Shown here: positions 6,180 through 8,102 of the stretch, piece after piece
How positions within the stretch are numbered: the first letter of the stretch is position 1
Layout of the letters: each line of letters begins with the position of its first letter
From: an uncultured Bacilli bacterium
GTDB lineage: Bacteria > Bacillota_I > Bacilli_A > RF39 > UBA660
Assembly (NCBI GenBank): GCA_910584305.1
Contig: CAJTZW010000003.1
Location: forward strand, 10,378 to 74,377
Length of the DNA stretch: 64,000 nucleotides
Direction: 5' to 3'
Notes under the pieces: model-generated
Database searches by the model: none
The model's input: only the letters and a program-made list of their open reading frames with translations
What the model was told of the DNA's origin: nothing
Translations under genes and position numbers: made by a program

Positions 6180-6188
6180 TTGAGGTCC

Positions 6189-6225
6189 AAACTCGCATAC
6201 TAGAAATAGTAAAGCGAGTTTTTAA
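6189..6225 (+). terminator. rho-independent terminator after tRNA-Gly
   Basis: aaactcgc-(16 nt loop)-gcgagttt followed by a T-run. Confidence 0.55.
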
Positions 6226-6416
6226 ATATACTTTATAGGACAAAAAAATTTCATTTTACATTTGATAAATACTAGGTATAAATGGGCTTCCTGATAATAT
6301 AAAATAAAGTATAATTATAGAAAAAAATTAATCATATTGCTTATCTGGTCTAGTGGAAATGAACCCCAAACTGTTTCCTAATTGACAGGTTGTTTCTTCA
6401 AAATCGTTCGAACTAG

Positions 6417-6444
6417 TTGCAACAAATTGTAATCATTCTATAAT
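6417..6444 (+). promoter_or_regulatory. candidate promoter (TTGCAA-16-TATAAT) for the 6524-7132 orphan gene; a second extended -10 (TGaTATAAT) lies at 6489-6497
   Basis: Read directly from the sequence. It leaves a long leader of about 80-290 nt before the TTG start. Confidence 0.4.
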
Positions 6445-6523
6445 AGATGACATAGAAATCAAAAATTGTATATAGTGTAGGCAAAATATGATATAATACT
6501 TAATACAAAAGGAGTGATTAGAA

Positions 6524-7132
6524 TTGGATTTAAAAGAAAAATTAGCAAAGCTGAAAATGAGTCTTTTAGATTCATCTTCATTAGATAATAGAGACTACGA
6601 ATTTGAGGCCGAATTAGAAGATCATCCACTTGGTAACCAAAATATTTATCGATTACATTATATTAATTATCATAGAATTGGTGAAAGTTATGGACAACGA
6701 GGTAATAATGTAGGGGTTATTGATTGGCCATTTAAACCCTTTGTATTACCAAATGGAATGAGTAGAGAAGATTCTTTTAAAGTTTTATCATATTTGACAG
6801 ATTTTATAGAAACCCAATTAAATTTAGAACCTTGTTCACATAAAAGTGTTTCCATATTAGATAATGTATTAAATTTAGAAAGACTAGGTTTCAAAAAATT
6901 AAATATATCTTTAGACATTGCTTCTACTAATGTTATTGATTTATTTACAGTATCTGGAAGATTACAACTATTTAAAAACAGTAATCACTACCAAAGATAT
7001 TTTGAATGGTATACTGAAGGTATTACATTTGATGAAGTAAATAATATTTACAATAAGTGTGGAATTCAGTTTTATGATTTAGTTGATATAAGTGATTCTT
7101 TCCAAAATCTACAACTAATAAAGAAAACATAA
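6524..7132 (+). CDS. hypothetical protein (orphan, 202 aa; TTG start)
   Basis: Clean ORF with AAGGAG SD 9 nt before a TTG at 6524. No motif I recognise. It is flanked by its own promoter and a strong terminator, immediately 3' of tRNA-Gly. Confidence 0.5.
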   Translation: MDLKEKLAKLKMSLLDSSSLDNRDYEFEAELEDHPLGNQNIYRLHYINYHRIGESYGQRGNNVGVIDWPFKPFVLPNGMSREDSFKVLSYLTDFIETQLNLEPCSHKSVSILDNVLNLERLGFKKLNISLDIASTNVIDLFTVSGRLQLFKNSNHYQRYFEWYTEGITFDEVNNIYNKCGIQFYDLVDISDSFQNLQLIKKT

Positions 7133-7156
7133 AATTTATTTTTCATTCTTACTTTT

Positions 7157-7196
7157 AAAAAGAAATTAGATATAGATAGTTCTAATTTCTTTTTCT
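7157..7196 (+). terminator. rho-independent terminator (13-bp perfect stem)
   Basis: aaaagaaattaga-tatagatagt-tctaatttctttt followed by a T-rich tract. Confidence 0.6.
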
Positions 7197-7357
7197 ATTC
7201 AACATTTGATATATACTATTTTTCAGCCCTAATGATAAAATTATATCTAATTTATCAATATGGGCTTTTCTTGTTCTAAACTATGTGCCAATGTCCTATT
7301 GGAATTGATTCTGTATTCAAAATTAATTATATCTAGTATTTTAAAATAATACGGTAT

Positions 7358-7513
7358 ATGTGTTCCGCAAGAGTAAGCATGGAAGAGCAGGCCCGTGAAG
7401 GGTTTAGTCTCGAAAGCATAAAAAGATTATGTGATTATAAGAAGTATAAGATTTACAAAGTTTATCGTGAAGAAGGAGTTTCAACTAAAAATATGAAACA
7501 CCATAGATTTTAG
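7358..7513 (+). pseudogene. remnant N-terminal fragment (52 codons) of a serine recombinase/integrase
   Basis: Translation ..[53 protein letters not shown] matches the catalytic N-terminus of serine recombinases (..RVSteeQ..GfSL..Q.. with active-site Ser, then ..EGiSg). It stops after about 50 aa, so it is truncated. Confidence 0.55.
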
Positions 7514-7547
7514 AAAATGATTCAAACAAGATAAATAATTTCCTGAC

Positions 7548-8102
7548 TTAAAAATTAGGATTATTTTCTTTTAGTACTTTTAATATTACATATTTAACAT
7601 GTTCTTTTGAATTATCATTACTAGTTGAGTAAAAATGGATTAATTTAATACCCACGGTTTTGCATATATTTATTACCTTTTGGTCTCTTTCTTTTCTATC
7701 TTTTCGCAAATGAGTTCTATCATTTATTTCTACTAATAAAAGTAGCTCTCTATAATCTTCTGTAAAAAAGGCAAAATCTATGTTTCTAAAGAGGGCATTA
7801 TTAGTTCTCGATTTTTGTAAATTTGATTTTGGCTTTTCTATAATAGAAGCTAAATTTAATTGTGGGTGTACAATCAAATTATTTTCTGTAGCTATCTCTT
7901 TAAAAATATTATAAAAATATCTTTCATAATTACTTATAAAGTACTCTTTAGGATTATATATATCATATTTAAAGCGTGTATCTTTTTCATTTCCTTCAAA
8001 TGCATTTTTATCATTTTTTTGCGTTTTTCCATTTCCACCTATTAATGCAACAATAGTGATTATAAATATTAAAAATAGTCCAACTAATAGAAAACCTAAC
8101 AT
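7548..8102 (-). CDS. DUF2726-domain protein (PD-(D/E)XK nuclease-fold family) with N-terminal TM anchor
   Basis: N-terminal hydrophobic helix, then ..KEYFISNYERYFYNIFKEIA...VHPQLNLASII...NIDFAFFTEDYRELLLLVEINDRTHLRKDRKERDQKVINICKTVGIKLIHF, which is the DUF2726 pattern. Confidence 0.5.
   Translation of the reverse strand: MLGFLLVGLFLIFIITIVALIGGNGKTQKNDKNAFEGNEKDTRFKYDIYNPKEYFISNYERYFYNIFKEIATENNLIVHPQLNLASIIEKPKSNLQKSRTNNALFRNIDFAFFTEDYRELLLLVEINDRTHLRKDRKERDQKVINICKTVGIKLIHFYSTSNDNSKEHVKYVILKVLKENNPNF

What the first reader, a model, noticed from the sequence alone, without database searches (positions are those of the whole stretch)
6180..8102. Degraded integrated islet immediately 3' of tRNA-Gly: orphan cargo gene, serine-recombinase stump, DUF2726 nuclease-fold gene
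tRNA 3' ends are classic integration sites. Directly after tRNA-Gly and its terminator come three elements. First, a self-contained cassette with promoter, 202-aa orphan ORF (TTG start) and a 13-bp-stem terminator. Second, a 52-codon N-terminal stump of a serine recombinase, with the catalytic-Ser region present and then a stop. Third, a divergently oriented DUF2726 protein with a membrane anchor. DUF2726 is a PD-(D/E)XK-fold domain. The core genes dtd, relA and secDF resume afterwards. This looks like the decayed remains of an integrative element whose cargo may still be expressed.
Basis: partly seen in the sequence, partly recalled or inferred. Interest (0 to 1): 0.5.

Follow-up and report, generated by a model that had tools for sequence, protein, structure and literature searches.

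The report
Decayed prophage scrap keeping one nuclease gene
About 1 kb downstream of a glycine tRNA gene lies a 0.9-kb scrap of dead mobile DNA: the broken start of an integrase gene joined to a fragment of a filamentous-phage-like prophage. That fragment's membrane-anchored nuclease gene is still intact. The supposed "orphan cargo" gene next to it is a conserved gene of this bacterial lineage, so the finding is mostly ordinary.

Summary

- **ORF202 (6524-7132)** is not an orphan. It has at least 321 homologues (55-91% identity) in related uncultured gut Bacilli, is under purifying selection, and has no relatives in any phage, plasmid or viral-contig collection searched. Its predicted fold matches no solved structure.
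- **The stump (7337-7526)** is the dead 5' end of a ~600-aa large serine recombinase gene.
- **The block 7527-8230** starts exactly where the stump ends. It is ~80% identical in DNA to part of an inovirus-like element on another contig. It holds the last 16 codons of that element's Zot-like assembly gene (broken by a 13-bp deletion), a terminator hairpin, an extended -10 promoter and an intact DUF2726 gene.
- **Integration at the tRNA** is not shown. There is no att repeat of the tRNA 3' end, and no genome close enough to show an empty site was retrievable.

Verdict: a prophage relic with one retained accessory nuclease. It is a new member of a known kind, of modest interest.

The parts
6106..6179 (+). 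tRNA-Gly(TCC). The nearby landmark, not shown to be the integration site. Its promoter is at 6058-6086 and its terminator at 6189-6222.
   Evidence: ARAGORN; Rfam RF00005 at 69.3 bits; promoter scan 12/12; hairpin z = -4.1.
6249..6274 (+). First copy of a ~26-nt direct repeat (TTTCATTTTACATTTGATAAATACTA) that brackets the ORF202 cassette. Its significance is uncertain.
   Evidence: (D9). The 17-nt core occurs only twice in 64 kb. 3 of 100 shuffles reach 2 matches, and 2.7% of low-GC window pairs score as high.
6524..7132 (+). ORF202, a member of a conserved lineage-wide protein family of unknown function. It is probably a resident gene and not part of the relic. A conserved 5' UTR/RBS lies at 6487-6523 and the terminator at 7157-7194.
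   Evidence: 321 homologues; alignment A1 with 30 invariant columns; dN/dS 0.22-0.33; the conserved DNA block is the ORF plus its terminator only; no Pfam, PHROG or PADLOC hit; model pLDDT 81.8 with no PDB or BFVD match.
7192..7218 (+). Second copy of the bracketing direct repeat, immediately after the ORF202 terminator.
7337..7526 (+). Pseudogene fragment: the 5' ~63 codons of a large serine recombinase. The catalytic RVS motif is present. The copy has a degenerate N-terminus, a 4-residue deletion, an in-frame stop at 7511-7513, and everything after about codon 63 is missing.
   Evidence: NCBIfam CcrB E = 1.1e-6; PHROG 95; HMMER search; relatives P0195 and P0196 pass the Pfam Resolvase cut-off; read-through homology to P0200; tblastn of P0223, 60% over 48 aa.
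7527..8230 (-). Block derived from an inovirus-like prophage, homologous to L097 4743-5455.
   Evidence: blastn 80% over 717 columns (MAFFT mean column identity 83%); tblastx of the flanks.
7548..8102 (-). Intact DUF2726 gene: an N-terminal membrane anchor (residues 2-23) followed by a Vsr/DUF559-like PD-(D/E)XK endonuclease domain. It is the one live gene of the relic.
8129..8158 (-). Hairpin terminator (8143-8158) whose T-tract runs into an extended -10 promoter, TGTTATACT (8129-8137). The motif is identical in the L097 element and is the likely promoter of DUF2726.
   Evidence: Terminator scan; alignment A2; coordinates verified. Promoter function is inferred.
8182..8232 (-). Dead 3' remnant of the Zot-like (pI) morphogenesis gene. 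It reads LMLKQDIFNGAMISNK*, against MPKQDILNGFMISNKEKEELKEMLF* in L097, and carries a 13-bp deletion.
   Evidence: L097 3952-4821 matches Pfam Zot at 21.2 bits, above the 20.3 cut-off.

Best explanation
Window 7337-8230 is a ~0.9-kb relic of integrated mobile DNA made of two fragments joined at 7526/7527.

- **Fragment 1** is the dead 5' end of a large serine recombinase gene.
- **Fragment 2** is a 704-bp piece of an inovirus-like (filamentous-phage-type) prophage. It keeps the last 16 codons of the Zot-like assembly gene, a terminator hairpin, an extended -10 promoter and an intact DUF2726 gene.

Everything else from the element or elements has been deleted. The relic is fixed in this species.

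DUF2726 is a recurrent inovirus accessory gene that sits just after the assembly module. Here it has outlived its phage and is kept by selection.

Inferred working:
- It is transcribed from its own promoter.
- It is tethered to the membrane by an N-terminal helix, and its Vsr/DUF559-type endonuclease domain cuts DNA close to the membrane.
- The most likely role is excluding incoming foreign or phage DNA (superinfection exclusion or defence).

Whether the recombinase stump came from the same prophage (one internal deletion of a convergent integrase gene) or from a second element is unresolved. I lean slightly towards two elements.

ORF202, between the tRNA and the relic, is a conserved gene of this bacterial lineage, not cargo. 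Integration at the tRNA-Gly itself is possible but not shown.
For: **Shown**
- Window 7527-8230 is ~80% identical in DNA to L097 4743-5455, including the Zot 3' remnant and identical hairpin and -10 motifs.
- L097 and L099-L101 are inovirus-like. They have many tiny ORFs, a ~550-aa protein, a Zot-like protein above the Pfam cut-off, an RCR Rep (G2P) and an adjacent tyrosine integrase.
- DUF2726 lies directly after G1P-G4P in the annotated Vibrio inovirus PQ189368. It also occurs with Zot-like and Rep-like genes in an 8.3-kb IMG/VR contig.
- No other phage gene survives in the window.
- The stump is recombinase-derived.
- DUF2726 has dN/dS 0.15, all invariant residues retained and a Vsr/DUF559 fold.
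- Its distribution is patchy: 99, 78 and 73% identity, then 55% or less.
- All 24 same-species contigs are identical here.
- None of 80 related species has these genes near relA.
- ORF202 is lineage-wide and absent from mobile-element collections.

**Literature**
- DUF2726 is a REase-fold family linked to mobile elements and to multiple horizontal transfers (PMC3424549, PMC3710099).
- Inoviruses use S-rec or Y-rec integration modules, integrate at tRNAs, and carry superinfection-exclusion genes (PMC6813254).
Against: - No att sites or target duplications define the relic's edges.
- No genome close enough to show an empty site was available.
- Expression of DUF2726, its nuclease activity, its membrane topology and any exclusion or defence role are all inferred. 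It has no PADLOC match.
- The closest DUF2726-bearing elements use a tyrosine integrase (L097) or show none. The stump's nearest full-length relatives are in 39-60-kb dsDNA-phage-like contigs. So the two fragments may be unrelated debris.
- ORF202's neighbourhood differs in every species, and in one close relative it adjoins another mobile remnant. Past mobility of ORF202 therefore cannot be excluded.
Confidence: 0.72

Rival explanations
1. A single integrative island entered at the 3' end of tRNA-Gly and decayed. ORF202, the recombinase stump and DUF2726 are all its remains, and ORF202 is surviving cargo.
For: - All three features lie between the tRNA and the syntenic DUF308-AI2E-dtd-relA block, and none is present there in 80 other species.
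- Homology to the nearest species stops 3 nt after the tRNA.
- tRNA-Gly, ORF202 and the stump form a +-strand patch in a window that is ~91% on the - strand.
- A ~26-nt direct repeat brackets the ORF202 cassette.
- An 81%-identical ORF202 homologue adjoins another mobile remnant.
Against: - ORF202 has 321 or more homologues, and their identity gradient (55-91%) is similar to that of core proteins.
- Those homologues sit among housekeeping genes with no recombinase nearby.
- The family is absent from IMG/VR contigs, 50,697 phage records and 72,556 plasmid records.
- tRNA adjacency of ORF202 homologues is not above chance.
- There is no repeat of the tRNA 3' end.
- From established knowledge, large serine recombinases do not create long att duplications at tRNA ends.
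Confidence: 0.12
2. A sub-variant of the best explanation. The stump and the DUF2726 block come from one serine-recombinase-type inovirus-like prophage whose integrase gene was convergent with DUF2726. One internal deletion removed the ~1.7-kb body of the integrase gene, and a second removed the rest of the phage.
For: - The two fragments abut exactly at 7526/7527, with the truncated end of the stump facing the 3' flank of DUF2726.
- In L097, DUF2726 is immediately followed by the element's integrase.
- Inoviruses are known to use either S-rec or Y-rec modules (PMC6813254).
Against: - No element with a Zot, DUF2726 and serine-recombinase layout was found in what I could retrieve.
- Close full-length relatives of the stump lie in 39-60-kb contigs with DnaD-like and RecE-like genes.
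Confidence: 0.33
3. DUF2726 is an old resident host gene that filamentous phages captured, and the window copy is the ancestral chromosomal version rather than a relic.
For: - Lone chromosomal copies exist in this species and in L141/L142.
- The gene is under purifying selection.
Against: - The window copy carries upstream the dead 3' end of a phage Zot-like gene and the phage's terminator and promoter motifs.
- The distribution across relatives is patchy.
- The gene is absent from this locus in 80 related species.
Confidence: 0.05
4. The recombinase stump is a chance ORF with a fortuitous motif.
For: It is only 51 codons long, has no Pfam hit of its own at E <= 1 and has no evident ribosome-binding site.
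Against: - NCBIfam E = 1.1e-6 and PHROG E = 1e-4.
- 169 HMMER hits in 1.8 billion proteins, aligned at the N-termini of ~600-aa recombinases at 55-63% identity.
- Its relatives pass the Pfam Resolvase cut-off.
- The homology continues through the stop codon.
Confidence: 0.02

Closest known systems
Inovirus (Tubulavirales) prophages carrying a DUF2726 accessory gene, e.g. Vibrio phage 10N.286.55.B4_PE003 (PQ189368), and the uncultured elements L097, L099-L101 and L146
   Same: DUF2726 sits immediately downstream of the pI/Zot-type assembly genes. In L097 it is next to the integrase. The window shares ~80% DNA identity with L097 over 704 bp, including the terminator and promoter motifs.
   Different: The window has no coat, adsorption, Rep or intact Zot gene. 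Only a 16-codon Zot remnant and DUF2726 remain, so it is a relic and not a prophage.
Vsr / DUF559 / I-Bth0305I-type PD-(D/E)XK endonucleases (PDB 1cw0, 3hrl, 3r3p)
   Different: Sequence identity is only 12-20%. The window protein has an N-terminal membrane anchor and a ~30-residue disordered linker. Its substrate and role are unknown, and there is no evidence for mismatch repair or intron homing.
Large serine recombinases (phage integrases of the TP901-1/phiC31 type; SCC recombinases CcrB and CcrC)
   Same: The N-terminal catalytic-domain signature (RVS..EEQ..EGFSL...Y.EEG.S) aligns to positions 13-61 of CcrB and to the N-termini of 523-640-aa relatives.
   Different: Only about 63 of ~600 codons remain, with a stop codon, a 4-residue deletion and a degenerate start. 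The rest of the catalytic domain, the recombinase domain and the zinc-ribbon/coiled-coil domain are all absent.
tRNA-linked genomic islands and prophage remnants
   Same: A recombinase remnant and a horizontally acquired gene lie near a tRNA gene. They are absent from other species and slightly AT-richer than the flanks.
   Different: There is no direct repeat of the tRNA 3' end. A conserved lineage gene lies between the tRNA and the relic. The recombinase is of the serine type, not the tyrosine type.

Membership tests
DUF2726 (PF10881), PD-(D/E)XK / Vsr-like nuclease family | Match to the family profile above the curated threshold | tested here: met
   42.7 bits against a cut-off of 24.7, E = 5.6e-11, covering profile positions 3-120 of 126.
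DUF2726 (PF10881), PD-(D/E)XK / Vsr-like nuclease family | Conserved core residues of the family retained | tested here: met
   Invariant columns E59, Q80, K89, D108, E124, N126, D127, H130, R135, R138 and D139 are all present in the window protein (alignment A3).
DUF2726 (PF10881), PD-(D/E)XK / Vsr-like nuclease family | Restriction-endonuclease-like alpha/beta fold | tested here: met
DUF2726 (PF10881), PD-(D/E)XK / Vsr-like nuclease family | Nuclease activity | not testable with these tools
   This needs biochemistry. No DUF2726 member was reported as characterised in the papers found.
Large serine recombinase | N-terminal catalytic domain with the serine nucleophile in the RVS(T) motif | tested here: inconclusive
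   The motif [15 protein letters not shown] is present and aligns to the family. Only about 57 of ~145 domain residues remain, and the ORF itself gives no Pfam Resolvase hit at E <= 1.
Large serine recombinase | C-terminal recombinase domain and zinc-ribbon/coiled-coil DNA-binding region (protein of ~450-700 aa) | tested here: not met
   The frame stops at 7511-7513 and homology ends at about 7526. The next DNA is the DUF2726 block, and no other recombinase sequence occurs in the 64-kb window. This is a pseudogene fragment, not a functional member.
Inovirus-like (Tubulavirales) prophage | pI/Zot-type morphogenesis ATPase | tested here: not met
   Only the last 16 codons survive, broken by a 13-bp deletion.
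Inovirus-like (Tubulavirales) prophage | Coat and adsorption gene module and a rolling-circle Rep | tested here: not met
   tblastn of all ORFs of L093, L097, L099 and L101 against the window hit only the DUF2726 and ORF202 regions. Rep and the large structural proteins gave no hit.
tRNA-integrated genomic island | Direct repeat of the tRNA 3' end (attR) at the distal border | tested here: not met
   No second copy of the 28-nt tRNA 3' end at 3 or fewer mismatches in 64 kb. Local alignments of the tRNA end against the 8180-8320 and 7500-7560 boundaries are no better than shuffles.
tRNA-integrated genomic island | Empty site in close relatives | tested here: inconclusive
   All 24 same-species contigs carry the islet. 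The nearest other species (RelA 76% identical) has DUF308, an unrelated 293-aa ORF and tRNA-Gly in the opposite orientation. No closer genome could be retrieved.
tRNA-integrated genomic island | Integrase gene adjacent to the tRNA | tested here: inconclusive
   The recombinase remnant starts 1.16 kb from the tRNA, with the conserved ORF202 cassette in between.
Known anti-phage defence systems (PADLOC-DB) | Match to a model of a known or candidate defence protein | tested here: not met
   No PADLOC family at E <= 1 for ORF202, the stump or DUF2726.

The most novel reading that the evidence does not exclude
DUF2726 proteins with an N-terminal membrane anchor are a widespread, uncharacterised superinfection-exclusion or defence nuclease of filamentous phages. 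They are encoded right after the assembly genes. The window shows one that has been kept by its host after the prophage decayed, acting as a single-gene, membrane-tethered barrier to incoming DNA. Separately, ORF202 would be the founding member of a protein family with a new fold that is conserved across a large clade of uncultured gut Bacilli.
Probability: 0.3. Interest if true: 0.5.

Novelty: new member of a known kind. Interest (0 to 1): 0.3.

Why it matters
- **Annotation.** The result separates a conserved lineage gene (ORF202) from true mobile debris. It identifies the debris as filamentous-phage-derived in a poorly known clade of uncultured, small-genome gut Bacilli.
- **A testable lead.** DUF2726 occupies a fixed slot after the assembly module in divergent inoviruses, and here it is kept under purifying selection after the phage is gone. 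That makes it a reasonable candidate for a phage-borne exclusion or defence nuclease, testable by heterologous expression.
- **A structural-genomics target.** The ORF202 family has 321 or more members, a confident model and no fold match.

None of this overturns current understanding. Prophage decay with retention of a useful accessory gene is well known.

Tried and rejected
1. **attR search.** I searched the window for the 28-nt tRNA 3' end at up to 3 mismatches, and ran local alignments of the tRNA end against the relic boundaries with shuffled controls. Neither found anything.
2. **ORF202 homologues enriched next to tRNA/tmRNA genes.** Three early cases looked suggestive. Across 42 loci only about 6 lie within 500 bp, against a tRNA density of about 1 per 12 kb, so I dropped the idea.
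3. **Flanking direct repeats as a general feature of ORF202 cassettes.** Only the window species shows one. The motif is absent from other species' loci and only weakly above chance.
4. **Other phage-module remnants in the window.** None found.
6. **Whether L093's mobile remnant is of the L097 type.** No detectable similarity.
7. **Close relatives of the window DUF2726 and of P0200 in IMG/VR.** None found.
8. **Rfam families.** Only the tRNA was found in the window. Nothing was found in the leader before the stump in L138.
9. **Same-species variants lacking the islet.** None among 24 contigs.
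Full report
**What is in the sequence**

- tRNA-Gly(TCC) occupies 6106-6179 on the + strand. It is preceded by a perfect sigma-70-type promoter at 6058-6086 and followed by a strong hairpin terminator at 6189-6222 (z = -4.1).
- A 202-aa ORF with a TTG start lies at 6524-7132. Its 14-bp-stem terminator is at 7157-7194.
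- A 51-codon ORF lies at 7358-7513 (+).
- On the opposite strand and convergent with it is a 184-aa ORF at 7548-8102.
- Next come DUF308/HdeD-like (8304-8864), an AI-2E transporter, dtd, relA and secDF, all on the - strand.

Three details need correcting: the orientation is convergent rather than divergent, two genes were omitted, and the end coordinate is too short.

**ORF202 is not an orphan**

- A search of 5.8 billion proteins found 321 homologues of about 200 aa at 55-91% identity, all without a Pfam assignment.
- An alignment of 52 of them has 30 invariant columns.
- dN/dS against four orthologues is 0.22-0.33.
- The homologues come from uncultured gut "Bacilli/Tenericutes" MAGs, the same clade as the window. 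Core proteins of that clade diverge to a similar degree: RelA is 63-76% identical.
- They lie among housekeeping genes in a different neighbourhood in each species, with no recombinase nearby. The DNA conserved between species is just the ORF, its RBS and its terminator.
- The family is absent from IMG/VR viral contigs, from 50,697 phage records and from 72,556 plasmids.
- An apparent link to tRNA/tmRNA genes did not hold up in the larger sample.

ORF202 is thus a lineage-wide protein of unknown function, most simply read as a resident gene.

Two observations keep a mobile past possible:
- A ~26-nt direct repeat brackets the cassette (6249-6274 and 7192-7218). It is only modestly unusual and not seen in other species.
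- In a close relative (L093, dS 0.28) the gene adjoins an unrelated mobile remnant.

**The stump is a real recombinase pseudogene**

- It matches the N-terminus of CcrB (NCBIfam E = 1.1e-6, positions 13-61 of 542) and PHROG 95 integrase.
- An exhaustive HMMER search of 1.8 billion representatives gave 169 hits, always aligned at protein N-termini. They include 523-624-aa proteins at 55-63% identity.
- Two close relatives, P0195 and P0196, pass Pfam's Resolvase threshold.
- Compared with relatives such as P0200 (...[33 protein letters not shown]...), the window reads ...[32 protein letters not shown]. The homology therefore runs through the stop codon and ends near 7526.
- The copy also lacks four residues (EQEE) and has a degenerate start. 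It is dead.
- Full-length close relatives of 627-640 aa (PHROG 95, E = 1e-106) lie in 39-60-kb viral contigs with DnaD-like and RecE-like genes.

**The DUF2726 gene belongs to a fragment of a filamentous-phage-like element**

- DUF2726 is confirmed by Pfam (42.7 bits against 24.7).
- Its relatives are patchily distributed: 99, 78 and 73% identity, then 55% or less.
- The 78% relative lies on a 6.3-kb contig (L097). That contig has a string of tiny ORFs, a 544-aa protein, a Zot-like protein above the Pfam cut-off, DUF2726 and then a tyrosine integrase.
- The 55% relatives (L099-L101) lie in a similar module with an RCR Rep (G2P).
- The window matches L097 at ~80% DNA identity over 7527-8230. 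That span holds four things:
  - 20 nt beyond the DUF2726 stop;
  - the whole DUF2726 gene;
  - an identical hairpin plus TGTTATACT extended -10 motif (8129-8158);
  - the last 16 codons of the Zot-like gene, broken by a 13-bp deletion (8182-8232).
- No other gene of such elements is in the window.
- Independently, the annotated Vibrio inovirus PQ189368 carries DUF2726 directly after G1P-G4P. An 8.3-kb IMG/VR contig pairs it with Zot-like and Rep-like genes.

DUF2726 is therefore a recurrent inovirus accessory gene, and the window holds a relic of such a prophage.

**The relic's one gene is alive**

- The window DUF2726 keeps every invariant residue of the family.
- Its dN/dS is 0.15 against the phage-borne copy and 0.29 against another chromosomal copy.
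- Residues 2-23 form a strongly hydrophobic helix, followed by a disordered linker.
- PMC3424549 and PMC3710099 describe DUF2726 as a REase-fold DNase tied to mobile elements and defence-type fusions.
- PMC6813254 shows that inoviruses carry superinfection-exclusion genes, use S-rec or Y-rec integration modules and often integrate at tRNAs.
- PMC11341870 describes, in its abstract, a filamentous Pf-prophage regulatory module that mediates host defence against lytic phages.

From this I infer, but have not shown, that the gene is expressed from its own promoter and acts as a membrane-tethered nuclease against incoming DNA.

**Is it an island integrated at tRNA-Gly?**

Evidence for:
- The relic lies between the tRNA and a block that is syntenic in relatives. 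RelA-Dtd-AI2E is present in nearly all 80 species, and DUF308 is present in the closest one.
- The nearest species also has tRNA-Gly just beyond DUF308, but inverted and with an unrelated ORF between them.
- tRNA-Gly, ORF202 and the stump form a +-strand patch in a window that is ~91% on the - strand.
- In another species a lone DUF2726 (73% identical) lies about 130 nt from the 3' end of a tRNA.

Evidence against, or missing:
- There is no att repeat.
- ORF202 intervenes between the tRNA and the relic.
- The relic is fixed in all 24 same-species contigs, and no close empty site was available.

I therefore treat tRNA targeting as possible but not shown.

**One element or two?**

The stump's truncated end abuts the DUF2726 3' flank at exactly 7526/7527. 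A single internal deletion in a convergent integrase gene would explain that. However, the nearest DUF2726 elements use a tyrosine integrase, and the stump's nearest relatives are in much larger phages. I lean slightly towards two elements and leave the question open.

**Verdict**

This is an ordinary prophage or mobile-element relic with one retained accessory nuclease, sitting next to a conserved lineage gene that was mistaken for orphan cargo. It is a new member of a known kind. Two modest leads come out of it: DUF2726 as an inovirus exclusion or defence candidate, and ORF202 as an uncharacterised family with an unmatched fold.

Noticed in passing
window 6524-7132: ORF202 belongs to a family of at least 321 proteins of ~200 aa, restricted to uncultured gut Bacilli/'Tenericutes' MAGs. 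It has no Pfam domain. Invariant residues include H34, S105, R146, K151, W162 and nearly invariant C104. A confident model (pLDDT 81.8) has no PDB or viral fold match.
   Followed up: partly
window 6249-6274 and 7192-7218: A ~26-nt direct repeat (core ACATTTGATAWATACTA) brackets the ORF202 cassette, each copy lying after a terminator. It is only weakly above chance and is not seen around ORF202 in other species. It could mark a past insertion or duplication.
   Followed up: partly
window 6040-7526 vs L007 15266-15408: tRNA-Gly with its promoter is in the opposite orientation to the relA operon here, but co-oriented with it in the nearest species. tRNA-Gly, ORF202 and the stump are a +-strand patch in a window where ~91% of large ORFs are on the - strand. 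This suggests a local inversion or rearrangement.
   Followed up: partly
window 8143-8158 (- strand): The phage-derived hairpin followed by a T-tract is the only terminator-like structure the scan found downstream of the DUF308-AI2E-dtd-relA gene string on the - strand. The relic may now supply that operon's terminator.
   Followed up: no
P0195, P0196 (L138 3437-3604), P0197: Other genomes hold similar short N-terminal stumps of the same recombinase subfamily (55 and 74 aa). P0197 is a 223-aa protein in which a stump-like 66 residues starting MCSVRVS (the window has MCSARVS) is fused in frame to a second, intact N-terminal copy. The recurrence of N-terminal stumps is unexplained.
   Followed up: partly
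L141 5394-6092 (also L142): A lone DUF2726 (73% identical) lies between a DUF308-family gene (only 32% identical to the window's) and the 3' end of a tRNA gene at the contig edge. DUF2726 is thus found near both a tRNA and a DUF308-family gene in two species.
   Followed up: partly
L093 369-2549: Next to the 81%-identical ORF202 homologue lie tiny membrane-type ORFs, a truncated P-loop (Zot-like or AAA) ORF and an HTH_36 replication-initiator-like gene. This is another small mobile remnant, with no detectable similarity to L097.
   Followed up: partly
L148 6130-9845; L149 6069-9884: In 39-60-kb viral contigs a full-length large serine recombinase lies directly downstream of a tyrosine integrase. 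This may be one element nested beside or inside another.
   Followed up: no
L138 3260-3436: The 55-aa stump there is preceded by a consensus-like promoter and a terminator-like hairpin leader. No Rfam family matched it.
   Followed up: partly
window 5659-6105: A 447-bp very AT-rich spacer (GC about 21-24%) separates the 182-aa ORF from the tRNA promoter. Only its last ~66 bp are conserved in the nearest species.
   Followed up: no
window 3054-5105 (- strand): A 683-aa GGDEF diguanylate cyclase with weak solute-binding-protein-like N-terminal matches and a transmembrane segment lies upstream of the tRNA. None of the other species' loci fetched around relA has it.
   Followed up: no
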